Origin: Minisyncoccota bacterium
GTDB lineage: Bacteria; Patescibacteriota; Minisyncoccia; Phycocordibacterales; Phycocordibacteraceae
Assembly: GCA_035627595.1 (NCBI GenBank)
Contig: DASPLK010000002.1
Location: 1,824 to 65,823 of the forward strand
DNA: 64,000 bases
Direction of reading: 5' to 3'
Below are positions 5,882-48,394 of this stretch, piece after piece; within the stretch, counting starts at the first letter, position 1, and each line of letters opens with the position of its first letter. The notes under the pieces were generated by a model. It saw only the letters and a program-made list of their open reading frames with translations. It was not told the DNA's origin and made no database searches. A program made the translations under genes and the position numbers.

Positions 5882-6379
5882 ATGGTTTCTTCTCGTTCGC
5901 GCGGATTTACGCTCATTGAACTCCTCATCGTTATTGCCATCATCGGCATCCTCTCTTCGACGGTGCTTGTGTCGCTCAATAGTGCACGCGCCAAGGCTCG
6001 CGACGCCCGTCGACTAAGCGACCTCAATCAGGTGCGTACAGCGCTCGAGCTTTATTACTTTGATAACGGGTCATATCCCGTACGGGCAAACTGGATAGGG
6101 ACAACGCCCGGGTGCTATAGCGGTCCTGCAGATCCTAAAACGGCAATCCCGGGACTCGTCCCGAAATACCTGCCTTCAATGCCGCAAGATCCGAAGCCAA
6201 CAGGAACTAGCTACTGCTATTTATACAGATCAGATGGAAAGGACTATAAGTTTATGGCGTACAACTCGGCTGAAACACGCACGCCTGCACCAGGCCAGCC
6301 AAACGCGCGCTACCGTTCTGGCTGCGGAAGTGCACAGAGAACTTTTGCGGTGTACTCCGAAGGGTATGGTTGCATGTAA
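5882..6379 (+). CDS. Type IV pilin-like / pseudopilin with class III (prepilin) signal peptide
   Basis: MVSSRSRG|[25 protein letters not shown] prepilin peptidase motif, followed by the conserved [25 protein letters not shown] block. Confidence 0.85.
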   Translation: MVSSRSRGFTLIELLIVIAIIGILSSTVLVSLNSARAKARDARRLSDLNQVRTALELYYFDNGSYPVRANWIGTTPGCYSGPADPKTAIPGLVPKYLPSMPQDPKPTGTSYCYLYRSDGKDYKFMAYNSAETRTPAPGQPNARYRSGCGSAQRTFAVYSEGYGCM

Positions 6380-10803: not shown

Positions 10804-11241
10804 ATGCACACCCGGCATGCCGGCTTCACTTTAATCGAGCTCCTGGTTGTCATCGCCATCATCGGCATCCTTTCTGCAACGGTACTCGTATCCCTGAATA
10901 CCGCGCGTAGCAAAGCGCGTGATGCTCGTCGTGAGGCCGATTTGCGGCAGGTGCGGACAGCGCTCGAGCTTCATTACCATGAACACGGGCGCTACCCATA
11001 TCACGTTTCAGGCCAGCGGCTTTCAGGTATAGCATCCTCAATGACCCCTACTTATATAGGAGCCATACCGTTTGACCCTGTAGCAGGGGATACCAGCACT
11101 GGCTACCGCTACTACTCGACTTCAGACTACGATGGGTACCAAATGTTAGTTATGCTCGAGACTGACGCATTAAGTAGCTGGTGCCGTCATGATGGAGGCG
11201 CAAACCCTCCGGCGGTCTGGGCAGCATATCCTCTCTGCTAA
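10804..11241 (+). CDS. Type IV pilin-like protein (prepilin signal)
   Basis: MHTRHAG|[52 protein letters not shown]. Confidence 0.85.
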
Positions 11242-11246
11242 ATCCT

Positions 11247-11693
11247 ATGTCACACGCAAATCAACCGCGCGGCTTCACGCTCATCGAACTACTCATCGTC
11301 ATTGCTATTATCGGCATCTTGTCTGCGACTGTGCTCGTATCGCTCAATCAAACACGAGTGAAGGCGCGTGACGCGCTGCGCCAGTCAGACTTGCGTCAAG
11401 TCCGTACCGCACTAGAGATTTACTATTTTGATAACGGCCGTTACCCAACAGACGGTCCAAATACACGTCTAGGAGAGATATCCTCGTCATTGGTCCCTAG
11501 ATATATGCCTAAGATGCCCGTTGATCCGACCTACGGGTCAGGCAGTAGTGGGTACCGATATCGTTCGGATTCCGCTGGCGAGCAAGGATACGAGATACTT
11601 GTGAATATGGAGACTGATAGCGTTACCTGGTGTAGGCAGGCGGGCGGTGCACCATCTACTGCCTGGGCCTCGTACCCGGCTTGTAGTAGCTAG
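11247..11693 (+). CDS. Type IV pilin-like protein (prepilin signal)
   Basis: MSHANQPRG|[52 protein letters not shown]. It starts 6 nt after the preceding pilin gene. Confidence 0.85.
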   Translation: MSHANQPRGFTLIELLIVIAIIGILSATVLVSLNQTRVKARDALRQSDLRQVRTALEIYYFDNGRYPTDGPNTRLGEISSSLVPRYMPKMPVDPTYGSGSSGYRYRSDSAGEQGYEILVNMETDSVTWCRQAGGAPSTAWASYPACSS

Positions 11694-28356: not shown

Positions 28357-30444
28357 ATGGCCAAAGCCGCAGATAATAAAGAGAAAAAAGCTGCCGCAAA
28401 GGGCAGCTCGTACGATGCCTCATCGATTACCGTCCTTGAGGGTCTTGACCCAGTCCGTAAGCGTCCGGGTATGTACATCGGTACCACCGGTCCCGATGGC
28501 CTCCACCATCTCATCTGGGAGATTTTCGATAACTCACGTGATGAGGCAATGGGTGGTCATGCTGACGATATCGAGATCGCACTGTTGCCAAATAACCGCA
28601 TTCGCGTTGTCGATAACGGACGCGGCATCCCGGTAGACAAGCACCCGCAGACCAAAGTATCCGCGCTTGAGATGATCATGACTACGCTCCATGCCGGCGG
28701 TAAGTTCGGTGGAGAATCTTCCGGCTACAAAGTATCCGGCGGTCTTCACGGCGTGGGCGCATCAGTCGTCAACGCGCTTTCGACCTGGGCACGTGCCGAG
28801 GTGCATCGCGACGGTGCGGTACATGAACAGGAATACAACATCGGCAAGCCAAAGAGTGCGGTAAAGAAGATAGGAACTTCTGATCGTCGAGGAACTATTA
28901 TCTCCTTCGAGGCGGACCCAACGATCTTCCAGGAGATCAAGTATGATTGGCACCGAATCGCCAACCATGTCCGCCAGCAGGCGTACCTTGTGAAGGGCAC
29001 GCGTATCTCTGTGATTGATGCCCGCAATCTCGAGTCGGTATCCGATGCGGGCGCCTTTTATCTCCGCGAACTCGGACTTGAAGCACCCTCGATGACTTTC
29101 TACTTCGAGGGAGGTCTTCGCTCTCTTGTATCATTCTATAACCAGCACCAGACCCCGGCCCATAAGAACATCTTTTATGTCGATGGCGGGGAAGGAGACG
29201 TCGCAGTCGAGGTAGCGTTCCAGTACACGGATGATCTCACGCCGCGCCTCCTGGCGTTTGCGAACAACATCTACAACCCCGAGCACGGTATGCACGTGAC
29301 GGGATTTAAGACTGCGCTAACGCGTACCCTTAATGCATACGGTCGCTCCTCCGGCATCCTCAAGGATAGCGAGGAAAACTTTACGGGAGACGATGTTCTG
29401 GAGGGCATCACGGCCGTTATATCGGTGAAGATGCCTGAGATCCAATTCGAAGGCCAGACTAAGGGAAAGCTAGGTTCCGTGGAAGCGCGCGGCGCTGTCG
29501 AGAGCGTATTTGGCGGCGCGCTGTCGTCATTCTTCGAAGAGAACCCGGATGATGCAAAAGCAATCGTTAACAAGGTGCTTATAGCGCTCAAGGCGCGTAA
29601 GGCTGCTAAGGCCGCAAAGGATTCAGTGCTCCGCAAGGGTGCATTGGAAGGAATGACCCTTCCAGGCAAACTTGCCGACTGCCAGACCAAAGCTGCGGAA
29701 GAGTCCGAACTCTTTATTGTGGAGGGAGACTCCGCAGGCGGTACCGCGAAGACCGGACGCGACCGCCGTACCCAGGCCATCCTTCCGCTACGCGGAAAGA
29801 TCCTCAACATTGAGCGCGCGCGCCTCGATAAGATGCTCGCTTCAGAGCAGATCAAGAACCTTGTCGTTGCGCTCGGTACCGCGATTGGCGATGTCTTCGA
29901 TATTACGAAGCTCCGCTATCACAAGATCATCATTGCAACCGATGCTGACGTCGACGGCGCCCATATTCGTACGCTTCTTCTGACTCTTTTCTATCGCCAT
30001 TTCCGTGCAGTTATCGATGGCGGGTATATCTATATCGCTCAGCCACCTCTCTACAAAATCAAGCGCGGCAAGGAAGTGCTTTACGCATACACCGATGAGG
30101 ATAAATTCAAGATTCTAGGCAAGGACGCTGAACTTTTGGAAGACCCCGGCGAGAACGAGGGTACAAGCGAGGAGGGTGAAAATGAGTCTGAGGAAGAGGA
30201 GGAAACTACCTCATCCAAGAAGTCCGCTAAGATCTCCATTCAGCGTTATAAGGGTCTTGGTGAGATGAACGCATCCGAGCTCTGGGAAACTACTATGGAT
30301 CCGAACCGTCGCGTTCTCAAGCGTGTCACTATTGAAGACGCAACCGAGGCAGACCGCATCTTCGGAGTACTTATGGGTACGGACGTTGCAAGTCGCAAAG
30401 CATTTATACAAAGCAACGCGAAGCTCGCAAATATTGATGTTTAG
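28357..30444 (+). CDS. gyrB: DNA gyrase subunit B
   Basis: [20 protein letters not shown] (GHKL ATPase N-box), [13 protein letters not shown] motif, QRYKGLGEM. Acidic insertion near the C-terminus. Confidence 0.85.
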
Positions 30445-30950
30445 TGCGGGATAGCTTTAACGTAGTTCATTCCGTAGCTGGTGTCACAGGTAGGACAACA
30501 ACTTACATGGTTCGTGGGCCCATTTACAAACCTATCTTCGGTAGCGAGACTTGCCATCACATACGTAGCTTCTGAGCAGCTATATTTCATGTATGCATGA
30601 CTTTGGACTGACGCGCTTGAGGAACGAGCGCCTGTGGGGTCAATTATCTCGCTCGGTACGTATCCACCATTTACTAAGCACATTGCAGTAGAGGTGTGGC
30701 CGCTATACGCTACATTGAACCAGCCACTACCGTTTCCACCACTACCACATCCGCTTCCGGAACCTGCAAAGGTGCCGTGATCTAACGCATATAAATAGAG
30801 CGCTTTAATGATGGTATCAACATCAGCCTTGCGCCTGGCATCCAGCGCCTTGAATCGCGCGCTATTTAGCGATACGAGGACGGTCGCAGAAAGGATACCT
30901 ATGATGGCGATGACAACCAATAATTCAATAAGAGTGAATCCGCGCTTCAT
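30441..30950 (-). CDS. Type IV pilin-like protein (prepilin signal), Cys-rich C-terminal domain
   Basis: MKRG|[39 protein letters not shown]. Its 3' end overlaps the gyrB stop (convergent). Confidence 0.85.
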
Positions 30951-41232: not shown

Positions 41233-41763
41233 ATGTATATGGTTTCCACGCGTAATACGCGCGGCTTCACGCTCATCGAGCTCCTGGTTGTCATCGCCAT
41301 AATCGGCATTCTCTCAGCTACGGTGCTCGTTTCCTTGAACACCGCACGTGGGAAAGCACGTGATGCTCGGCGTCTTTCCGACCTGCGGCAAGTGCAAATT
41401 GCGCTTGAGCTCTATTACCACGCACACGGTTCATATCCCGTATCGCCAGCAGGTGGCTTCACCTGGGCGCGCAGCTCATGTGTCACCGGAAGTCAGTACT
41501 ATACGGCGCTTGAGCCGTTAGTGTCTGAAGGGTACTTGCCATCCATACCTATAGATCCGGTCAACCAAAGCAGTGGCAGTCCTATACATTGCTACTGGTA
41601 CTTTACCGAACAGCACGATGGCGGAAACTGCGGTACTGCCGTTAATGCGAATGAATACGAGTATGTCCTCTTCTTCTCTACGGAGGGTGCCGATCTAAAC
41701 CATCCAGTAGGTCGCGTTGGTGCTTCTGGCCCATCGTGGTGCCTGCTCGGTCCGAAGAGGTAG
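41233..41763 (+). CDS. Type IV pilin-like protein (prepilin signal)
   Basis: M(YM)VSTRNTRG|[52 protein letters not shown]. Alternative start at 41239. Confidence 0.85.
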   Translation: MYMVSTRNTRGFTLIELLVVIAIIGILSATVLVSLNTARGKARDARRLSDLRQVQIALELYYHAHGSYPVSPAGGFTWARSSCVTGSQYYTALEPLVSEGYLPSIPIDPVNQSSGSPIHCYWYFTEQHDGGNCGTAVNANEYEYVLFFSTEGADLNHPVGRVGASGPSWCLLGPKR

Positions 41764-41831: not shown

Positions 41832-42341
41832 ATGTTCACTTCCCGGAGCGAGCGCGGCTTCACGCTTATCGAGCTCCTGGTCGTCATCGCTATCATCGGC
41901 ATTCTATCGGCGACCGTGCTCGTGTCTTTGAATACAGCGAGAACAAAAGCGCGGACCGCAGCCATAAAAGCGCAGGTCATTGAATTCCGTAAATTAATGG
42001 AGCTTGAACACCTTCAGACTGGAAGCTATGTGAACCTTGCACGTGGTTGGGTTGGAACCGGCGCCACAAACCCCACATGCGAAAATCGTGGATATGCCGG
42101 AGCATACGCGGATCAGGCTGTTGCCATCTGTAGAGGCATAGTCTCAAATGGCATTGCGGGGGAAAATGTTTTACATACAGGCGTAAATACCGCACTCGGG
42201 TTTACCTACACAGAGGACGTGGCAATTATGGCCGTGCTTCCCGACGGAAACATGTTTTGCGCGGGGTCTAGCGGAGCGACTTCGGAGGTTGCATTTTTAA
42301 GTGCGAATTATGTACAGCCCGGCTGTTACAGCAACCCCTAA
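41832..42341 (+). CDS. Type IV pilin-like protein (prepilin signal)
   Basis: MFTSRSERG|[40 protein letters not shown]. Confidence 0.85.
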
Positions 42342-42919: not shown

Positions 42920-43305
42920 AAGCAATCCCTCCGGGTGTTAACCGGAGGGACGAGCTCAGTGTCGGAAGGCGCCCGAAGACGCCCATGGTGAGCTGTGGAG
43001 GCTAGCCCGCCTCAGGGTGTCCAAACCCATGAGCATTGCTACTCGGGGATCTGGAAACCCTGACGCGAACATGAGACTCCGGTATTGGCTTCGAGCTGAT
43101 ACCTCATTGAGGCCCCCAAAAAACAGGGTAAACATGTACTTTTCGAAGCCTAACCTTAGCTGCTCTTGCTGCATCAGGTTACGGCCCCGCGCTCCAGCAA
43201 ATGGGCAAAGAGGGCGGGCATTCCCATCTTTTCACCGTATCGTCCCTCTGGCAAGTAAATACGGCACCCTTCCGCTTTTTAGGGCCCTATGGTACGGTAT
43301 GCCCC

Positions 43306-43662
43306 ATGTCAGTACGAATGCGCCATACCAGTTCCCACACCAAGAACCGCCGCAGCCATCACGCGCTAACGGCGGATAAGGTCGTGAAGGATAAGGACTC
43401 GGGCGCGCTACGCCTGCCGCACCGTCTCGATGAGACGACCGGCATGTACCGCGGCAAGCTCATCGTTCCTGAGCGCAAGAAGGCGCTTAAGAAGGAGGAG
43501 AAGCGTCGTGAGCGCAACGAGGGCAAGAAGGAGGAGATGCTGAACGCAGGCATGGGCCACAAGGAGCCCGTACATATGGAAGAGAAGCAGCCTGAAAAGA
43601 AGGGCGTTCTCGGCCGCATGACTAAGGGCCGCGTCACCTCCCGCAACGCCACCGGTTCCTAA
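43306..43662 (+). CDS. rpmF: 50S ribosomal protein L32 with Lys/Glu-rich C-terminal extension
   Basis: MSVRMRHTSSHTKNRRSHHALTA...YRGKLIV matches the L32 core. The frame continues ~60 aa as a K/E-rich tail. Confidence 0.7.
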   Translation: MSVRMRHTSSHTKNRRSHHALTADKVVKDKDSGALRLPHRLDETTGMYRGKLIVPERKKALKKEEKRRERNEGKKEEMLNAGMGHKEPVHMEEKQPEKKGVLGRMTKGRVTSRNATGS

Positions 43663-43680: not shown

Positions 43681-43718
43681 AATGCACAACCCCGCGCACT
43701 TGCGCGGGGTTGTGCATT
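43681..43718 (+). terminator. Hairpin terminator after rpmF
   Basis: aatgcacaaccccgcgca-ct-tgcgcggggttgtgcatt, an 18-bp perfect stem. Confidence 0.6.
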
Positions 43719-43751
43719 ACTGTTAGGCTTTAGGGACACGCTCTTTCCAGT

Positions 43752-44675
43752 ATGGCTAATCGGCACCTTGCACGCTCCGTTGTTCTGCAGACGCTCTTCG
43801 AGTGGGATACTGCGCATATCCCGCAGGAGGGAGTCGCAGAAGTCCTCGCTCGCAACATCGAGGAGTTCAGCGGCGACGAAACCGACCGGCCATTTATGGA
43901 ACAACTTCTCCAAGGCGTACTCGCCAAGCAGCCAGATCTCGACCTCGTTATCGCGAAAGCCGCTCCGGACTGGCCTATAGACCGCATCGCACCAGTAGAC
44001 CGAAACATCCTACGCATCGGCCTTTTTGAGCTTCTGTTTGCGGACCGCGCGCAAGTTCCTGCCAAGGTTGCAATAAACGAGGCGATTGAACTTGCCAAGG
44101 TGTTTGGCGGCGATTCCTCCGGCCGCTTTGTGAATGGTGTGCTTGGCGCTGTGTATAAGGAAATGGGCGAGCCCGGCAAGGATGAGACCGGCAAGAAGCA
44201 GCGTGTGAGGCGTGAGGACCTGCCGGTTGAGCACCTCGGCGGCGCAGTTGTGTACGCAGAGCACGAGGGTCAGTATTTCCTTGCGCTCGTCCATGATGTG
44301 TTTGGACACTGGACGCTCTCAAAGGGCAGACTCGCAGAAGGCGAAGACCTCAAGGACGGTACAAAGCGCGAGATCAAGGAGGAGATGGGTATCGATATTG
44401 AGATTGAACAAAAGATTGGTGAAAACGAATATGTCGCGTCGCACCCGGAGAAGGGAAAGTTCCGCAAGCATGTCACGTATTTCTTAGCGCGCTCCGAGTT
44501 TCTGCCGCTTAAGCTCGAGGAGGGGAAGGGCGGTCTCGATGACACGCGCTGGTTCCGTCTGACAGATATTCTTGACCTCAATTTCTATGACGACATGCTC
44601 CCTATCGTCACTCAGGGCGTACAGGAACTTCTCAATAAGTCGCAAGCAAAGAAAGAGGCAAACGAACAGCGCTAG
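43752..44675 (+). CDS. nusB: NusB antitermination factor fused to a C-terminal NUDIX hydrolase domain
   Basis: N-terminus ARSVVLQTLFEWD...RIGLFELLF...AINEAIELAKVFGG (NusB fold signature). C-terminus GRLAEGEDLKDGTKREIKEEMGI (Nudix box GX5EX7REuXEEXGu). Confidence 0.75.
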   Translation: MANRHLARSVVLQTLFEWDTAHIPQEGVAEVLARNIEEFSGDETDRPFMEQLLQGVLAKQPDLDLVIAKAAPDWPIDRIAPVDRNILRIGLFELLFADRAQVPAKVAINEAIELAKVFGGDSSGRFVNGVLGAVYKEMGEPGKDETGKKQRVRREDLPVEHLGGAVVYAEHEGQYFLALVHDVFGHWTLSKGRLAEGEDLKDGTKREIKEEMGIDIEIEQKIGENEYVASHPEKGKFRKHVTYFLARSEFLPLKLEEGKGGLDDTRWFRLTDILDLNFYDDMLPIVTQGVQELLNKSQAKKEANEQR

Positions 44676-44713: not shown

Positions 44714-45400
44714 ATGAGCGATATCGCTTCTCATGCCGCAAGGCTCGGAATAGTATTCTCCGACCTCGACCTTTTGGCCGAGGCGTTAACGCATCGCTCC
44801 TATTTGAACGAGCATAAAGCCGCTAAGGCGCATAACGAGCGGCTCGAATTTTTGGGGGATGCGGTTCTTGAGCTCTCCATCACGCACTTCCTCTTTACGA
44901 AGTTTCCTAACAAGCCCGAGGGTGATTTGACCGCATATCGAGCGGCACTCGTGAACACATATTCTCTAGCTGAGACCGCAGAGGAGATCGGCCTTAATGA
45001 TATGTTGCTTCTCTCAAAAGGTGAGGCAAAGGATACCGGCCGCGCGCGTCAGATAATCCTTGCTAACGCGTTCGAAGCGGTACTAGGTGCAGTCTATCTC
45101 GACCAGGGGTACGAAGCTGCCAATGCCTTTGTTGAGCGGCACCTATGTCCAAAGATAGACGATATCGTCGCAAAGCGCGCATACCAGGACGCCAAAAGCC
45201 GTTTTCAGGAACTCGCCCAGGAGAAGAAGGGACATACACCGACCTATAAGACCATCAGTGAAGAAGGTCCAGATCACGATAAGAAGTTTACCGTCGGCGT
45301 ATTTGTCGGACATGACGAAGTAGCGCACGGAGAAGGAAAGAGTAAACAGGAAGCTGAGCAGGCAGCAGCAACAGCCGCCCTCTCTAAACTTGGGTGGTAA
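44714..45400 (+). CDS. rnc: Ribonuclease III
   Basis: ERLEFLGDAVLEL RNase III signature plus a C-terminal dsRBD. Confidence 0.85.
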   Translation: MSDIASHAARLGIVFSDLDLLAEALTHRSYLNEHKAAKAHNERLEFLGDAVLELSITHFLFTKFPNKPEGDLTAYRAALVNTYSLAETAEEIGLNDMLLLSKGEAKDTGRARQIILANAFEAVLGAVYLDQGYEAANAFVERHLCPKIDDIVAKRAYQDAKSRFQELAQEKKGHTPTYKTISEEGPDHDKKFTVGVFVGHDEVAHGEGKSKQEAEQAAATAALSKLGW

Positions 45401-45435: not shown

Positions 45436-46059
45436 TCATTCCTTAACTTTTGCGCGCTTGGGTTTTGTTACTTCCCATGTGATGTCGCTCGGATCTTCTG
45501 GGAGAGAGCCCTCAAGTCGCACGTCGCCACTCTTATTTGGACGGATCTCAATCTTCGTATCGAAGATCGTCGTCACCGTTTTGAGCCGCTTTGCGAGCTC
45601 GGGATCTTCCTGAAGCGCCTGCAAGTTCGGCGCGTCGGCGCCTCTCCTGATAAGCTTTCGTGCAAGGCCCTTGCGTCTAACCTCCTTGAAGAACGCATCC
45701 GTGTCGCCGCCTTTTATGCTAAAGCTCGGGCGTGGCACATCACGCTGACGAATCTCGCCAGTCGAGAAGCGCACGGTACGCATGCCGCGCTCGACCAGTT
45801 CATCCCATCGCGAGAGCACAAACTCGATAAGTACGTTCGCGACTGCAGTTGCCTTTAAAAGCTCAGGGTTTGAGAGAGCCTTCTTCTGCTCCTGAACCGC
45901 TGTCATCTTCTGCTGCAGCTTGGCTAAGCGCTTGTCGCACCGCGCTTCGATGGAACTCCGCTTGTTGAGGGCGACACCGATCCGCGACAGGAGACTAGCC
46001 GCCTCCCGGCGCGACGTAGGCGTTACAGGAATCAGGTCAGTTAAAGAACCGTTAGGCAT
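45436..46059 (-). CDS. Bacteriophage Mu Gam-like host-nuclease-inhibitor (DNA-end-binding) protein
   Basis: N-terminal coiled-coil region. The block VRFSTGEIRQRDVPRPSFSIKGGDTDAFFKEVRRKGLARKLIRRGADAPNLQALQEDPELAKRLKTVTTIFDTKIEIRP is collinear with the Mu Gam core (KFATGEV..R.RPPSVSIRG.DAV.E.L.R.GL.RFIR...EINKEAI.). My alignment is from memory, not a search. Confidence 0.55.
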   Translation of the reverse strand: MPNGSLTDLIPVTPTSRREAASLLSRIGVALNKRSSIEARCDKRLAKLQQKMTAVQEQKKALSNPELLKATAVANVLIEFVLSRWDELVERGMRTVRFSTGEIRQRDVPRPSFSIKGGDTDAFFKEVRRKGLARKLIRRGADAPNLQALQEDPELAKRLKTVTTIFDTKIEIRPNKSGDVRLEGSLPEDPSDITWEVTKPKRAKVKE

Positions 46060-46177: not shown

Positions 46178-48394
46178 ATGCTAAAGCGCCTTGAAATCGC
46201 AGGGTTCAAGTCCTTTGCCCGGAAGACCGTGCTCGATTTCTCGAGTGCCGCTACGGCTATTGTCGGACCTAACGGCTCCGGAAAGAGCAACGTTGCCGAG
46301 GCTTTCCGCTTTGCACTTGGCGAGCAGTCGATGAAGTCGATGCGAGGAAAGAGAAGTGAGGACCTTATTTGGGCAGGTAGCCACTCAACCGCCCGCCAAA
46401 ATAGGGCAGCGGTTGCAATCGTGTTCGATAACACGCCACGCAAGGGTGTGCGCGTATTTCCGAAGCTAGATTTTGATGAGGTTGCCATTGAGCGCGTTGT
46501 ATACCGCGATGGTGTGAGCGAATACTCGATCAATGGCTCTAAAGCGCGTCTGCGCGACATACAGGAGCTACTTGCAAGCGCAAACATTGGTGAGACCGGA
46601 CATCACATCATTTCTCAGGGAGAGGCCGACCGCATTCTCATGGCACATCCGCGCGAACGTCGCGCGATGCTCGAGGACGCACTTGGGTTGAAAGTTTTTG
46701 AGTTCAAAAAGCAAGAGGCCGAGCGAAAGCTCGAGAAGACTGAGGAAAACATGCGCGAGGTTGAAGCGATCCGTAGGGAGCTTGCACCGCATCTACGATT
46801 CCTCGCTAAACAAGTCGAGAAGCTCGAACGCGCGGAGGAGCTTTCACGTGAGCTCGCTGACGTCTGCCGCACATACTTTGCGATAGAGGACCTATACCTA
46901 AAGGAGGAGAAGATAAAAGCTGAACGAGAGCGGTCTGAATCAAGCCAACGGCTCCAAGAGGCAGCTGGCGAGCTCGCTGTGTTTGAGGAGCGCGCTACAA
47001 CCGATAGCGAGGGCATGAAAAAGACAGAGGCGGTCCGTATCGCTGAGCGTGAACTCGAAAAGCTACGCGAAGAGCGCACCCAGCTTACGCGCGATATTGG
47101 TAAGGCCGAGGGAGCGCTCGATGCCGCAAAGCGACGGAGTGCGCAGGTCGCTGATTCCCCATACGTTAAGATCGCGCGTGAGGAGCTCTCTATTCTCAAA
47201 CAGGAAGTAGATCGCCAAACGGATGCTGCGATCGCTGCAGAAGACCCCGGAGCTTTAAAAGCAGCGCTGGTCGCCCTTCGAGGGGCCGTATCAGCATTCT
47301 TTGAGCGATTTGGCAGTCCGAACGATGACCTCCTGGCAGAGGAGCAGAATGCGGTCTATAGCCTTCAGAACCAATACGATGCGCTCGCGACTAAGGACCG
47401 TGAGCTAGCGGAACAGATAGAGATTGCTCGTAATGCGCTCCAAAAGGCACGCGAAGCGCAGATTGCATACCAAGAGACAGGTAGGGAAGAGCGGCACCGC
47501 CTCCTCTCGCTTGCCGAGACGCGCGCGCATGAGGAGGCGAACGTTGCGCGCGCAGAAGCACGTCTTAATGAGCTACAGCTCCTTGCGGAGGAATTGATGC
47601 GTGATAAAGCCGAGGTCGTGCCATTAGCAGGACGCAATGCACTTTCATATGAGGCGCTTACGGATCTTCCTAATGAAGATCGTCGTACTCAAGAGGATCG
47701 AAAGCGCTCGATGGAGCGTTTGAAGATTCGTGTCGAGGAAGCGGGTGGTTCAGGCGAAGACGTACGCACTGAATACCAAGAGACGAAGGAACGAGAAGAG
47801 TTTCTTGCTAAGGAAGTTGAGGACCTCGGCAAATCTGCAGAAGGACTGCGTGAGCTTATACATGATCTGGATACCGAGCTTCAGAAGACCTTCTCTGAAG
47901 GTCTCGCAAAGGTAAATGCATCGTTCAGTGAGTTCTTCGCACTCATGTTCGGAGGCGGCTCTGCGAAGCTTGTTTTGGAAGAGCCTACAGCAGTTGATGA
48001 AGAAGAAGAGGAAATGGACATTCGGCCGAAGAACGAGCGGCTGGGTATCGAGATAGCCGTTAACCTGCCGAAGAAACGCCTTCAGTCACTAATGCAGCTC
48101 TCAGGGGGTGAGCGAGCGCTAACCTCCATTGCGCTCATCTTTGCCATGAGCCAGGTGAATCCTCCGCCATTTTTGATACTTGATGAGACCGATGCAGCTT
48201 TGGATGAGGCAAACTCCCGCCGTTACGGCGATATGATTGAGGAGCTCGCGAAAAAGTCTCAGCTAATCGTAATCACGCACAACCGCGAGACTATGAGCCG
48301 CGCAGGCATCCTCTATGGCGTGACTATGGGAGGCGACGGTGTTTCCAAGCTCCTGTCAGTAAAATTTGAAGAAGCAGTTGCGGTCGCGAAGTAG
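46178..48394 (+). CDS. smc: SMC-family ATPase (short, no recognisable hinge)
   Basis: N-terminal LEIAGFKSFARKTVLDFSSAATAIVGPNGSGKSN Walker A. C-terminal LSGGERALTSIALIFAM...LILDETDAALD signature and Walker B. Long central coiled-coils. 738 aa. Confidence 0.7.
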   Translation: MLKRLEIAGFKSFARKTVLDFSSAATAIVGPNGSGKSNVAEAFRFALGEQSMKSMRGKRSEDLIWAGSHSTARQNRAAVAIVFDNTPRKGVRVFPKLDFDEVAIERVVYRDGVSEYSINGSKARLRDIQELLASANIGETGHHIISQGEADRILMAHPRERRAMLEDALGLKVFEFKKQEAERKLEKTEENMREVEAIRRELAPHLRFLAKQVEKLERAEELSRELADVCRTYFAIEDLYLKEEKIKAERERSESSQRLQEAAGELAVFEERATTDSEGMKKTEAVRIAERELEKLREERTQLTRDIGKAEGALDAAKRRSAQVADSPYVKIAREELSILKQEVDRQTDAAIAAEDPGALKAALVALRGAVSAFFERFGSPNDDLLAEEQNAVYSLQNQYDALATKDRELAEQIEIARNALQKAREAQIAYQETGREERHRLLSLAETRAHEEANVARAEARLNELQLLAEELMRDKAEVVPLAGRNALSYEALTDLPNEDRRTQEDRKRSMERLKIRVEEAGGSGEDVRTEYQETKEREEFLAKEVEDLGKSAEGLRELIHDLDTELQKTFSEGLAKVNASFSEFFALMFGGGSAKLVLEEPTAVDEEEEEMDIRPKNERLGIEIAVNLPKKRLQSLMQLSGGERALTSIALIFAMSQVNPPPFLILDETDAALDEANSRRYGDMIEELAKKSQLIVITHNRETMSRAGILYGVTMGGDGVSKLLSVKFEEAVAVAK

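What the first reader, a model, noticed from the sequence alone, without database searches (positions are those of the whole stretch)
43752..44675. NusB fused to a NUDIX hydrolase domain
A single 307-aa ORF encodes a complete NusB-like antitermination domain (residues ~1-140). It is followed without a stop by a NUDIX domain with a canonical Nudix box (GRLAEGEDLKDGTKREIKEEMGI). NusB normally acts with NusE on nascent rRNA. Coupling it to a nucleotide-diphosphate hydrolase could link antitermination to RNA 5'-end (de)capping or alarmone/nucleotide hydrolysis. I am not aware of this fusion as a characterised architecture.
Basis: seen in the sequence. Interest (0 to 1): 0.55.

Follow-up and report, generated by a model that had tools for sequence, protein, structure and literature searches.

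The report
NusB fused to Ap4A-hydrolase-like Nudix domain
In a large group of tiny uncultured bacteria (Patescibacteria), the rRNA transcription factor NusB is permanently fused to a nucleotide-binding Nudix domain that keeps its binding pocket but often loses its catalytic residues, so it looks more like a nucleotide or RNA-5'-end binding module than a dedicated enzyme.

Summary
Window 43752-44675 (+) is one uninterrupted 307-aa ORF with a bona fide NusB domain (TIGR01951 above its cutoff) and a Nudix domain with a canonical Nudix box (residues 192-214).

It is not an assembly artefact. The same ~300-aa fusion occurs in at least 80 species-level genomes, and 474 species genomes encode a relative. 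There are 371 unique full-length proteins down to ~30% identity, all from Patescibacteria (labels Kaiserbacteria, Paceibacterota, Nomurabacteria). The order rpmF - nusB::nudix - rnc is conserved. Sources name the protein only "NusB", and I found no paper on the fusion.

The Nudix domain resembles Ap4A/Ap6A hydrolases (Aquifex 3i7u, Thermus Ndx1, NUDT2). Across the family the phosphate- and adenine-binding residues are nearly invariant. The catalytic "RE" glutamate (E207) is kept in only 56% and changes at least 73 times. The query's relatives at 85-90% identity carry E207K. The domain stays under purifying selection (dN/dS ~0.13) after the box degenerates. Hydrolysis is therefore plausible here, but it is not the conserved function.

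The gene also has a ~16-nt leader carrying a BoxA-like motif (GCTCTTTCC). The same motif sits in the 16S rRNA leaders of related Parcubacteria, which suggests NusB autoregulation.

Verdict: a real, uncharacterised variant of NusB, moderately interesting.

The parts
43752..44675 (+). nusB::nudix ORF, 307 aa including stop
   Evidence: N-terminus MANRH invariant in homologues
43752..44171 (+). NusB domain (residues 1-140), seven helices
   Evidence: Pfam and TIGR01951. Foldseek to Aquifex NusB in the NusB-NusE-BoxA complex, 3r2c: TM 0.88, rmsd 1.8. F126, D83 and F16 align with AaNusB F122, E81 and EcNusB Y18.
44166..44225 (+). Linker (residues 139-158). It starts with the conserved GEPGKD motif and is predicted disordered at 141-151.
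   Evidence: Y135, K136, E137, G139 and P141 are invariant, and E140, G142, K143 are >=90% conserved, in alignment A2. pLDDT <50 at 141-151. The motif is absent from stand-alone CPR NusB proteins.
44226..44639 (+). Nudix domain (residues 159-296), Ap4A/Ap6A-hydrolase-like
   Evidence: Pfam. Foldseek: 3i7u TM 0.89, 1vc8 TM 0.85, also 4mpo, 1ktg, 4ijx. phmmer: Ndx1 at 4e-7. BLASTP to NUDT2.
44325..44393 (+). Nudix box G192-I214. Canonical in this genome, degenerate in about half of the family.
43740..43750 (+). BoxA-like motif GCTCTTTCCAG, ending 1 nt before the ATG
   Evidence: G[ACT]TCTTT lies within 30 nt upstream of the start codon in 65/79 nusB::nudix loci. The counts are 1/72 for rnc, 1/68 for rnhB, 2/65 for smc and 0/77 for rpmF. 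The same motif is in the 16S leaders of related Parcubacteria, L091 and L117. Consensus GYTCTTTAANA is from PMC5725501.
43721..43729 (+). Extended -10-like element TGTTAGGCT, 10 nt upstream of the BoxA-like motif (putative promoter; inferred)
   Evidence: A TAnnnT hexamer ends 6-14 nt (mode 9) before the motif in 60/66 loci, and 36 of these have a TGn extension.
43681..43718 (+). 17-bp GC-rich hairpin between rpmF and nusB::nudix (probable rpmF terminator)
   Evidence: MFE -50.9 kcal/mol, z = -8. A hairpin at the same place, with a different sequence, is present in most related loci.
43306..43662 (+). rpmF (ribosomal protein L32 with a long K/E-rich C-terminal tail), conserved upstream neighbour
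   Evidence: Pfam L32p. Adjacent in 77/80 loci and in the distant fusions L083 and L085.
44714..45400 (+). rnc (RNase III), conserved downstream neighbour
   Evidence: Pfam. Adjacent in 74/80 loci and in L083 and L085. The rnc start overlaps the nusB::nudix stop by 8 nt in 14/72 loci.

Best explanation
This is the organism's working NusB. It should pair with ribosomal protein S10 (NusE) and bind BoxA RNA in rRNA leaders, and apparently in its own ~16-nt mRNA leader as well, which would give autoregulation. A conserved GEPGKD-containing tether carries an Ap4A/Ap6A-hydrolase-type Nudix domain. The family-wide role of that domain is to bind a nucleoside-5'-polyphosphate. In these bacteria BoxA lies within a few to ~25 nt of the transcript 5' end. 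The tethered pocket can therefore reach the 5'-terminal (p)ppN or an Np4N cap of the same RNA that NusB holds, and I consider this the most likely ligand. Free Ap4A-type dinucleotides are the alternative ligand. In this genome the Nudix box is intact, so the domain is predicted to hydrolyse its ligand as well. In about half of its relatives it can probably only bind.

Shown: the fusion is real, both domain identities, conservation of the binding residues, volatility of the catalytic residues, purifying selection, synteny, and the BoxA-like leader.

Inferred: S10 and BoxA binding, the identity of the ligand, the transcription start sites, and any effect on antitermination or rRNA processing.
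For: NusB identity: TIGR01951 above cutoff. Fold match to NusB in the NusB-NusE-BoxA complex. Residues aligned with the BoxA- and NusE-contacting residues F122, E81 and Y18 are conserved: F126 in 371/371, D83 in 368/371, F16 in 346/371.

Nudix subtype: the best structural matches are Ap4A/Ap6A hydrolases. H186, K191, Y227, K239 and Y279 align with NUDT2 His37, Lys42, Tyr82, Lys89 and Phe128, the P1-phosphate and adenine-stacking residues.

Binding versus catalysis: W187, K191, Y279, Y227, K239 and E211 change 4-14 times on the tree of 371 sequences, whereas E207 changes at least 73 times and is kept in 209/371. Sequence pairs at 94-96% identity differ in box status, and the nearest relatives carry E207K. 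The degenerate-box subset still keeps the core binding residues (W187, K191, Y227, K239, Y279) in 92-98% of sequences and has dN/dS 0.13, against 0.09 for the canonical subset.

Context: rpmF - nusB::nudix - rnc is conserved even in fusions at 28-40% identity.

BoxA: the motif is specific to this gene's leader, starts about 9 nt after a -10-like box, and is identical in its first 10 bases (11 of 12) to the 16S-leader motif of a syntenic Parcubacteria contig.

Precedent for non-catalytic Nudix domains: PMC5389931, and the NrtR Nudix domain is among the top structural hits.
Against: No ligand, activity or partner was measured.

AF2 gives no confident interdomain geometry (pTM 0.53).

Transcription start sites are inferred from -10-like hexamers only.

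The rRNA leader is removed by RNase III anyway, so a need to process its 5' end is not obvious.

Some of the conserved 'binding' residues (W187, W267) may be conserved for structural reasons.

E211 is nearly invariant. Its equivalent in Ndx1 is the residue mutated to inactivate that enzyme (E50Q). Variants lacking E207 might therefore retain some catalysis.

The tree is UPGMA, dS is near saturation (~1.3), and sampling is biased towards close relatives.
Confidence: 0.4

Rival explanations
1. One reading: the Nudix domain is primarily an enzyme, an RNA 5'-pyrophosphohydrolase or decapping enzyme of RppH/NudC type. NusB recruits it to nascent rRNA, and catalysis is the reason for the fusion.
For: The box is canonical in this protein and in 187/371 relatives. 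E211 is nearly invariant. Dcp2, NUDT12 and NudC are among the structural hits. RNase III is adjacent. BoxA lies close to the 5' end.
Against: The catalytic E207 is lost in 44% of sequences, with at least 73 changes, and it ranks in the most variable third of Nudix-domain positions. E198, R206 and E210 are also frequently lost. The closest relatives carry E207K. The domain remains under purifying selection after the loss. RppH curated models score far below cutoff, 21.6 against 118.
Confidence: 0.2
2. The Nudix domain binds, and sometimes cleaves, free dinucleoside polyphosphates (Ap4A/Ap5A-type alarmones) or a related nucleotide. It thereby tunes NusB activity, coupling rRNA synthesis to translation stress. 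This would be a sensor domain, as in NrtR.
For: The nearest structures and sequences are Ap4A/Ap6A hydrolases. The Ap4A-binding residues are conserved while the catalytic ones are not. The NrtR Nudix sensor domain is a top structural hit. Non-enzymatic Nudix regulators are known.
Against: There is no evidence for an allosteric link. The domains are predicted to be independent (pTM 0.53). A sensor does not explain why half of the family keeps a perfect catalytic box. Ap4A metabolism in these organisms is unknown.
Confidence: 0.2
3. The Nudix domain is a structural or protein-binding subunit of the rRNA antitermination complex. It would be an enzyme-fold scaffold, analogous to the inositol-monophosphatase-family protein SuhB in E. 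coli.
For: Catalytic residues are dispensable. The linker motif GEPGKD is conserved yet predicted disordered, which is typical of a docking motif. SuhB is an integral part of the rrn antitermination complex (PMC6614797, PMC6614801).
Against: The most conserved Nudix residues are those that line the nucleotide pocket in Ap4A hydrolases, not an obvious new surface. No partner could be tested.
Confidence: 0.1
4. A fortuitous fusion of two unrelated housekeeping genes (NusB and a nucleotide-sanitising or Ap4A hydrolase) in a streamlined genome, with no mechanistic coupling.
For: Patescibacteria have compact genomes with overlapping genes (the rnc start overlaps the nusB stop in 14/72 loci). AF2 shows no interdomain contact.
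Against: The fusion is retained down to ~30% identity with a conserved linker motif. A housekeeping hydrolase should keep its catalytic residues. No confirmed split form was seen among the 80 species loci.
Confidence: 0.08
5. A sequencing or assembly error joined two adjacent genes.
For: None found.
Against: The same continuous ORF is present in 80/80 independent species-level genomes and in 371 unique proteins from NCBI, JGI, ENA and Logan assemblies.
Confidence: 0.01

Closest known systems
NusB (E. coli, Aquifex, Thermotoga; PDB 3r2c, 3d3b, 1tzt)
   Same: Same fold and family: TIGR01951 above cutoff, TM 0.88. BoxA- and NusE-contact positions are conserved. There is an N-terminal Arg-rich segment (R4, R8). 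A BoxA-like element lies in a Nus-factor gene leader, as described for suhB and ribH-nusB (PMC5725501).
   Different: Carries a ~165-residue C-terminal extension (conserved linker plus Nudix domain). Sits between rpmF and rnc rather than in ribH-nusB-type contexts.
Ap4A/Ap6A Nudix hydrolases (human NUDT2, C. elegans NDX-4, Aquifex aq_158 3i7u, T. thermophilus Ndx1 1vc8, Chlamydia CT771)
   Same: Best structural and sequence neighbours of the Nudix domain. The H-W-T-x-x-K-G motif, the loop-5 Tyr, the Lys, and the C-terminal aromatic residue that bind the P1 phosphate and stack the adenine are all conserved.
   Different: Those are stand-alone enzymes with strictly conserved catalytic glutamates. 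Here the domain is fused to NusB and the 'RE' glutamate is lost in 44% of family members. No curated Ap4A-hydrolase model is matched above cutoff.
RsmB/Sun 16S rRNA m5C967 methyltransferase
   Same: The only well-known architecture in which a NusB-like domain is fused to an RNA-directed enzyme domain. RsmB models align to residues 8-149.
   Different: In RsmB the NusB-like domain is N-terminal to a SAM methyltransferase and is not the cell's NusB. Here the NusB domain is an equivalog-level NusB and the partner is a Nudix domain.
NrtR and other non-catalytic Nudix domains (DBC1 and others)
   Same: A Nudix fold with a degenerate box used for ligand binding and regulation of gene expression. The NrtR Nudix domain is a top Foldseek hit.
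   Different: NrtR is a DNA-binding repressor with a winged-helix domain and binds ADP-ribose. Here there is no DNA-binding domain, and the pocket residues are of Ap4A-hydrolase type.
RppH / NudC / Dcp2 RNA 5'-end Nudix enzymes
   Same: Nudix domains acting on RNA 5' polyphosphate or cap structures. This activity is conceivable for canonical-box members.
   Different: RppH curated models are far below cutoff. Those enzymes keep their catalytic residues and are not tethered to a transcription factor.
SuhB in the E. coli rrn antitermination complex
   Same: An enzyme-family protein that serves as an accessory subunit of the Nus complex and is autoregulated through a BoxA in its leader.
   Different: Unrelated fold (inositol monophosphatase) and a separate polypeptide.

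Membership tests
NusB (TIGR01951 / PF01029) | Sequence match above the curated family cutoff | tested here: met
   TIGR01951 scores 129.3 bits against a cutoff of 88.35. PF01029 E 4.8e-35.
NusB (TIGR01951 / PF01029) | All-helical NusB fold | tested here: met
   AF2 predicts seven helices with pLDDT >90. Foldseek: 3r2c/3r2d TM 0.88, rmsd 1.8 A.
NusB (TIGR01951 / PF01029) | Residues that contact BoxA and NusE (AaNusB F122, E81; EcNusB Y18) | tested here: met
   F126 is invariant, D83 is present in 368/371 (a conservative E-to-D change), and F16 is present in 346/371. Based on alignment and roles from PMC3177189.
NusB (TIGR01951 / PF01029) | Binds S10/NusE and BoxA RNA; supports antitermination | not testable with these tools
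   Only indirect evidence: a BoxA-like motif in its own leader and in the rRNA leaders of related CPR bacteria.
NusB (TIGR01951 / PF01029) | Is the only NusB of the genome | not testable with these tools
   No second NusB in the 64-kb window.
Nudix hydrolase superfamily (PF00293) | Pfam match and alpha/beta/alpha Nudix fold | tested here: met
   PF00293 scores 42.6 bits against a cutoff of 21.1. Foldseek gives more than 500 Nudix hits.
Nudix hydrolase superfamily (PF00293) | Nudix box GX5EX7REUXEEXGU | tested here: met
   Exact match at residues 192-214 in the query. Only 187/371 family members keep E198, R206, E207, E210 and E211 together.
Nudix hydrolase superfamily (PF00293) | Mg2+-dependent pyrophosphohydrolase activity | not testable with these tools
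   Needs an enzyme assay.
Ap4A/ApnA hydrolase subgroup (NUDT2 / Ndx1-like) | Closest structural and sequence neighbours are ApnA hydrolases | tested here: met
   3i7u TM 0.89, 1vc8 TM 0.85, also 4mpo, 1ktg and 4ijx. Ndx1 at 4e-7, 1kt9 at 1e-3, 3u53 at 1.6e-3.
Ap4A/ApnA hydrolase subgroup (NUDT2 / Ndx1-like) | P1-phosphate and adenine-stacking residues (human His37, Lys42, Tyr82, Lys89, Phe128) | tested here: met
   The equivalents are H186, K191, Y227, K239 (or K236) and Y279, by BLASTP alignment (NUDT2 sequence recalled from memory). Roles are from PMC4734340. Conservation.
Ap4A/ApnA hydrolase subgroup (NUDT2 / Ndx1-like) | Match to a curated ApnA-hydrolase family model, and measured substrate specificity | tested here: inconclusive
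   No NCBIfam Nudix model reaches its cutoff; the best are MutT1 at 21.8 against 475 and RppH at 21.6 against 118. Activity was not tested.
RppH (RNA pyrophosphohydrolase) | Match to RppH equivalog models | tested here: not met
   NF001936 scores 21.6 against 118, and NF001938 scores 15.3 against 116.
RsmB-type NusB-like fusion | NusB-like domain followed by a SAM-dependent m5C methyltransferase domain | tested here: not met
   RsmB models match only residues 8-149, at 58.8 against 319. There is no methyltransferase domain.
NrtR-like Nudix regulators | Nudix domain plus a C-terminal winged-helix DNA-binding domain | tested here: not met
   No wHTH domain. Only NusB and NUDIX are detected. The resemblance is functional only.

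The most novel reading that the evidence does not exclude
Patescibacteria have built a new input into the Nus antitermination machine. The NusB-tethered, Ap4A-hydrolase-derived pocket grips (and in some lineages cleaves) the 5'-terminal triphosphate or Np4N cap of BoxA-containing transcripts, or it senses Ap4A-type alarmones. This would couple rRNA transcription, processing and NusB autoregulation to 5'-end chemistry or nucleotide stress. It might also substitute for accessory factors such as SuhB in these minimal cells.
Probability: 0.25. Interest if true: 0.75.

Novelty: new variant of a known kind. Interest (0 to 1): 0.55.

Why it matters
NusB is a universal, normally single-domain factor. 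A permanent fusion to a nucleotide-polyphosphate-binding domain across a major uncultured lineage points to an unrecognised layer in rRNA transcription and processing control.

It also gives a natural series of catalytic-on and catalytic-off variants, sometimes at more than 94% identity. These are ideal for testing whether binding or hydrolysis matters.

If the ligand is the RNA 5' end or an Np4N cap, this would be the first transcription-elongation factor with a built-in 5'-end reader.

The BoxA-like leader extends Nus-factor autoregulation to Patescibacteria. It also defines their BoxA variant, which has C at position 8.

On the practical side, current annotation ('NusB') hides the second domain in thousands of database entries.

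Tried and rejected
- **Artefact hypothesis.** Rejected.
- **Split nusB + nudix forms.** I looked for them. The short Nudix-only representatives (P0209, P0214, P0261) start inside the linker and sit on 1-2 kb contigs (for P0214), so they are probably fragments. None of the 80 species loci is split.
- **Stand-alone NusB of another CPR lineage.** P0200 lies in a different context, with no Nudix gene next to it. There is therefore no evidence for an ancestral adjacent pair.
- **Taxon names for distant representatives.** The listing of cluster members gave none.
- **Literature.** Searches for NusB+Nudix, NusB+Patescibacteria, and CPR+Nudix+antitermination found nothing relevant. PMC7461214 did not contain the NusB interface residues I expected.
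- **Simple promoter scan.** It found nothing useful near the gene. The -10-like boxes were found by comparing loci instead.
- **Metagenome scan for a BoxA-like motif upstream of 16S.** It returned mostly non-CPR bacteria; the L162 group, for example, has 6S RNA and RNase Y. Only L091, L117 and L146 could be tied to Parcubacteria through homology or synteny with the window. No rRNA leader from the query's own close clade (Kaiserbacteria-like) was obtained.
- **Other Nudix or BoxA sites in the window.** A second Nudix box was sought and not found. GCTCTTTC is not enriched in the window overall: 4 matches against 2.9 expected.
Full report
**1. Observation**

Window 43752-44675 (+) is a single 307-codon ORF with no internal stop. 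Pfam finds NusB (residues 7-136, E 4.8e-35) followed by NUDIX (residues 165-282, E 7.4e-11), both above gathering cutoffs. NCBI's equivalog model for NusB (TIGR01951) scores 129.3 bits against a cutoff of 88.35. The 23-residue Nudix box GRLAEGEDLKDGTKREIKEEMGI (residues 192-214, DNA 44325-44393) fits GX5EX7REUXEEXGU exactly.

**2. The fusion is real and widespread**

A search of 5.8 billion proteins returned 120 listed proteins of ~300 aa at 75-98% identity. All carry both Pfam domains. They come from NCBI, JGI, ENA and Logan assemblies and, where named, are called only "transcription antitermination factor NusB". A profile search returned 120 more at about 56-69% identity, labelled Nomurabacteria, Moranbacteria or Paceibacterota (identities).

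A scan of one genome per GTDB species found 474 stretches that encode a relative. The best 80 loci all carry the uninterrupted fusion at 70-85% identity.

Among 1.84 billion 50%-identity representatives, 146 hits have E <= 1e-30. About 56 of them are full-length fusion clusters, reaching down to ~30% identity. Stand-alone NusB proteins of 140-157 aa from other lineages appear at 45-56% identity to the NusB half.

All organism labels are Patescibacteria/CPR: Kaiserbacteria, Paceibacterota, Parcubacteria, Minisyncoccia. A few labels are obviously automatic or wrong. A sequencing or assembly artefact is excluded.

**3. Genomic context**

In the 80 loci the order dnaE(-) | rnhB - rpmF - nusB::nudix - rnc - smc is conserved. 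L32 is present in 77/80, RNase III in 74/80 and RNase HII in 74/80. Pfam confirms the window's own neighbours.

Three distant fusions at 28-40% identity keep the core:
- L083: yceD - rpmF - nusB::nudix - rnc.
- L085: rpmF - nusB::nudix - rnc.
- L084: rnhA - rnhB - small ORF - nusB::nudix, then the contig ends.

The rnc start overlaps the nusB::nudix stop by 8 nt in 14 of 72 loci; the median gap is 38 nt. A stand-alone NusB from another CPR lineage (P0200) lies in an unrelated context with no Nudix gene nearby. The fused gene is thus embedded in a ribosome-biogenesis neighbourhood of L32 and RNase III.

**4. The NusB half**

AlphaFold2, run on an 87-sequence alignment, gives mean pLDDT 89 with seven helices at residues 2-138. 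Foldseek superposes them on Aquifex NusB from the NusB-NusE-BoxA and NusB-NusE-dsRNA complexes (3r2c, 3r2d): TM 0.88, rmsd 1.8 A.

I used the HMMER alignment to E. coli NusB and the structural roles given in PMC3177189:
- AaNusB F122 stacks on BoxA U8. Its equivalent, F126, is invariant in 371 fusions.
- E81 reads U8 and is held by NusE H15. Its equivalent, D83, is present in 368/371.
- EcNusB Y18 is buried in the NusE interface. Its equivalent, F16, is present in 346/371.

The N-terminal MANRHLARS with R4 and R8 is nearly invariant. I therefore regard the protein as a functional NusB. Binding itself is inferred.

**5. The Nudix half**

No curated NCBIfam Nudix family is matched above cutoff. 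MutT1, RppH, NudI and others score only 15-22 bits against cutoffs of about 95-475.

By sequence against the PDB, the best hit is the Thermus Ap6A hydrolase Ndx1 (4e-7). It is followed by a MutT/Nudix protein, Chlamydia CT771 (an Ap4A hydrolase) and Rv2985/MutT1. C. elegans and human Ap4A hydrolases come at ~1e-3.

By structure, the best target-normalised matches are Aquifex Ap4A hydrolase 3i7u (TM 0.89, rmsd 2.0), Ndx1 (TM 0.85), CT771, C. elegans NDX-4 and human NUDT2. The non-catalytic ADP-ribose-binding Nudix domain of the regulator NrtR also ranks near the top.

BLASTP against human NUDT2 aligns H186-W-T-L-S-K191-G with H37-W-T-P-P-K42-G. It also aligns E207 with E58, E211 with E62, Y227 with Y82 and Y279 with F128. 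K239 (or K236) corresponds to K89.

PMC4734340 states that His, Lys42, Tyr82 and Lys89 form the P1 phosphate site. It also states that the loop-5 Tyr and a second Tyr/Phe (Phe128) stack the adenine. The domain is therefore an Ap4A/ApnA-hydrolase-type Nudix domain.

**6. Binding residues are conserved; catalytic residues are not**

This is the key new result. I aligned 371 unique full-length fusions and counted changes by Fitch parsimony on a UPGMA tree.

| Residue class | Position | Inferred changes |
|---|---|---|
| Pocket | W187 | 4 |
| Pocket | K191 | 4 |
| Pocket | Y279 | 7 |
| Pocket | Y227 | 12 |
| Pocket | K239 | 14 |
| Box | E211 | 14 |
| Box | R206 | 42 |
| Box | E198 | 47 |
| Box | E210 | 54 |
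| Box | E207 | at least 73 |

- E207 is the "RE" glutamate. It is equivalent to NUDT2 E58, the residue mutated in PDB entry 4ijx, titled "human Ap4A hydrolase E58A mutant". It is retained in only 209/371 sequences; the alternatives are K 57, V 38, G 29, A 15 and I 14. It ranks 36th most variable of 136 Nudix-domain positions.
- Only 187/371 sequences keep all five key residues. Among the 57 sequences compared at the 50%-representative level (56 cluster representatives plus the query), only 10 do.
- The flips are recent. The query and its relatives at 98% and 95% identity have REIKEE. The next relatives, at 85-90%, have RKIKEE. Pairs at 94-96% identity differ in status.
- The domain does not decay after the loss. 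The degenerate-box subset keeps the core pocket residues (W187, K191, Y227, K239, Y279) in 92-98% of sequences.
- Nei-Gojobori dN/dS for the Nudix domain is 0.09 in canonical pairs, 0.13 in degenerate pairs and 0.155 in mixed pairs. NusB is ~0.10 throughout. dS is ~1.3, so these values are approximate.

This pattern is what one expects of a domain selected for ligand binding, with hydrolysis optional. Non-enzymatic Nudix domains are an established class (PMC5389931).

Caveat: E211 is almost invariant, and its Ndx1 equivalent E50 is the residue mutated to inactivate that enzyme. Residual or alternative catalysis in E207-less members cannot be excluded.

**7. Linker**

The two domains are joined by residues ~139-158. 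The motif Y-K-E-x-G-E-P-G-K-D (135-144) is invariant or nearly so in the fusions. It is absent from stand-alone CPR NusB proteins. AF2 predicts residues 141-151 as disordered, and pTM is only 0.53, so no fixed interdomain arrangement is predicted. A conserved but disordered motif suggests a docking or hinge element. Its partner is unknown.

**8. A BoxA-like leader (found in passing, relevant to function)**

Upstream of the ATG the related loci share three features:
- A GC-rich hairpin whose sequence varies while the stem is kept. In the window it lies at 43681-43718, with -50.9 kcal/mol and z = -8. It is probably the rpmF terminator.
- A -10-like TAnnnT hexamer (TATACT, TACTCT and others), with a TGn extension in 36 loci. 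It ends 6-14 nt (mode 9) before the third element, in 60/66 loci.
- The motif A-G-(C/A)-T-C-T-T-T-C-(C/A)-A-T, lying 0-6 nt before the ATG.

G[ACT]TCTTT lies within 30 nt upstream of the start in 65/79 nusB::nudix loci. The counts are 1/72 for rnc, 1/68 for rnhB, 2/65 for smc and 0/77 for rpmF. In the 64-kb window this is the only copy placed directly before a gene start at an intergenic site.

The motif matches the first seven positions of the BoxA consensus GYTCTTTAANA (PMC5725501).

A metagenome scan for GCTCTTTC 61-121 nt upstream of the 16S 5' end returned at least 120 loci. Most are not CPR. Three are tied to Parcubacteria:
- L091 is syntenic with window 10.8-22.5 kb (pilin, L25, M23-like, prf-like, rpsB, tsf) at 33-48% identity.
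- L117 carries prf-like, rpsB and tsf.
- L146 carries several type IV pilin-like genes that match the window's.

Their 16S leaders carry GCTCTTTCCAATTG (L091), GCTCTTTCACAATT (L117) and GCTCTTTCAAGTTG (L146). The window's nusB leader reads GCTCTTTCCAGT, which is 11 of 12 identical to L091.

So the lineage's BoxA apparently has C at position 8, and nusB::nudix carries one in a leader of only ~16 nt. This fits Nus-factor autoregulation as shown for E. coli suhB and proposed for ribH-nusB (PMC5725501). It also independently supports the view that the fused protein acts as NusB. I could not obtain an rRNA leader from the query's own close clade.

**9. Mechanism**

Steps shown: the architecture, the domain subtypes, the conservation pattern, the synteny and the BoxA-like leader.

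Steps inferred:
- NusB::Nudix pairs with S10 and binds BoxA.
- BoxA starts about +2 to +4 in its own mRNA, and roughly 20-25 nt from the start of the rRNA leader in L117. Both distances are judged from -10-like boxes.
- A ~20-residue flexible tether can therefore place the Ap4A-type pocket on the 5'-terminal (p)ppN or an Np4N cap of the same RNA.

The pocket binds in all members and hydrolyses only where the box is intact, as in this genome. I give this model about 0.4. The rivals are:
The volatility of the catalytic residues weakens it.
- A sensor or hydrolase of free Ap4A-type alarmones (0.2).
- A SuhB-like structural subunit (0.1).
- A fortuitous co-expression fusion (0.08).
- An artefact (0.01).

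**10. Comparison with what is known, and novelty**

The NusB half is a member of the NusB family. The Nudix half is a member of the Nudix superfamily and resembles ApnA hydrolases, but no curated subfamily membership could be shown.

The only familiar NusB-like fusion is RsmB (NusB-like domain plus methyltransferase), and this protein is not one of those. NrtR is a precedent for a catalytically degenerate Nudix sensor in gene regulation. SuhB is a precedent for an enzyme-fold accessory subunit of the Nus complex. RppH, NudC and Dcp2 are precedents for Nudix action on RNA 5' ends.

I found no paper describing a NusB-Nudix protein, although databases hold thousands of copies named simply NusB. 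I rate it a new variant of a known kind, with interest 0.55.

**11. Limits**

- No reads, whole genomes, PAE matrix or model coordinates were available.
- The tree is UPGMA and the sampling is biased towards the query's clade.
- dS is close to saturation.
- Transcription start sites and the ligand are unverified.
- Two reference sequences (human NUDT2 and the E. coli rrn boxA) were recalled from memory and cross-checked only against residue numbers or consensus sequences in papers.

Noticed in passing
window 43738-43751, with the -10-like box at 43721-43729; related loci L001-L080; L091 10739, L117 5029, L146: nusB::nudix has a ~16-nt leader made of a BoxA-like motif (GCTCTTTCC) that abuts the ATG. 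The motif is specific to this gene among its neighbours. It is nearly identical to the motif in the 16S rRNA leaders of related Parcubacteria contigs. This suggests NusB autoregulation and a CPR BoxA variant with C at position 8.
   Followed up: partly
window 43681-43718: A perfect 17-bp GC-rich hairpin lies between rpmF and nusB::nudix (-50.9 kcal/mol, z = -8). Most related loci have a hairpin at the same place with a different sequence, so the stem is conserved by covariation. It is probably the rpmF terminator, although the U-tract is weak.
   Followed up: partly
related loci L001-L080, upstream of rnc, rnhB, smc and rpmF; for example the window's rnc start at 44714: The neighbouring genes have TGnTAnnnT (-10-like) boxes only 7-9 nt before their ATG and no Shine-Dalgarno sequence. 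This suggests mostly leaderless mRNAs in this lineage. nusB::nudix is the exception, with a short leader.
   Followed up: partly
window 43306-43662: rpmF encodes 118 aa, but the L32p Pfam domain covers only residues 6-53. The remainder is a Lys/Glu-rich C-terminal tail. tblastn matches in related loci fall into a short class and a long class, so the tail is variably conserved.
   Followed up: no
window 45436-46059 (-): A 207-aa phage Mu Gam-like ORF (PF07352, 30.7 bits) lies between rnc and smc. It is present in only 2 of 80 related loci, so it is a variable, possibly phage-derived insertion.
   Followed up: partly
window 46178-48394: The SMC homologue is only 738 aa, whereas typical bacterial SMC is ~1,100-1,200 aa (from memory). 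The SMC_N model spans residues 1-723, and no hinge domain was reported by Pfam.
   Followed up: no
window 5882-6379, 10804-11241, 11247-11693, 30441-30950 (-), 41233-41763, 41832-42341: Six small genes share a type IV pilin-like N-terminal methylation motif ([18 protein letters not shown]). The two nearest to the locus are confirmed as PF07963. Such genes are present in only 8-9 of the 80 related loci at this position.
   Followed up: no
proteins P0223 and P0260 (50%-identity representatives): Two 142-aa stand-alone Nudix proteins have a MutT-like N-terminal half (W..PGG type). Their C-terminal half is 56-58% identical to the fusion family. They may be recombinants or chimeric assemblies. This is unresolved.
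   Followed up: no
window 42920-43305: About 385 nt between rnhB and rpmF contain no convincing ORF. A distant relative (L083) has yceD at this position. The content of this region in the window was not examined.
   Followed up: no
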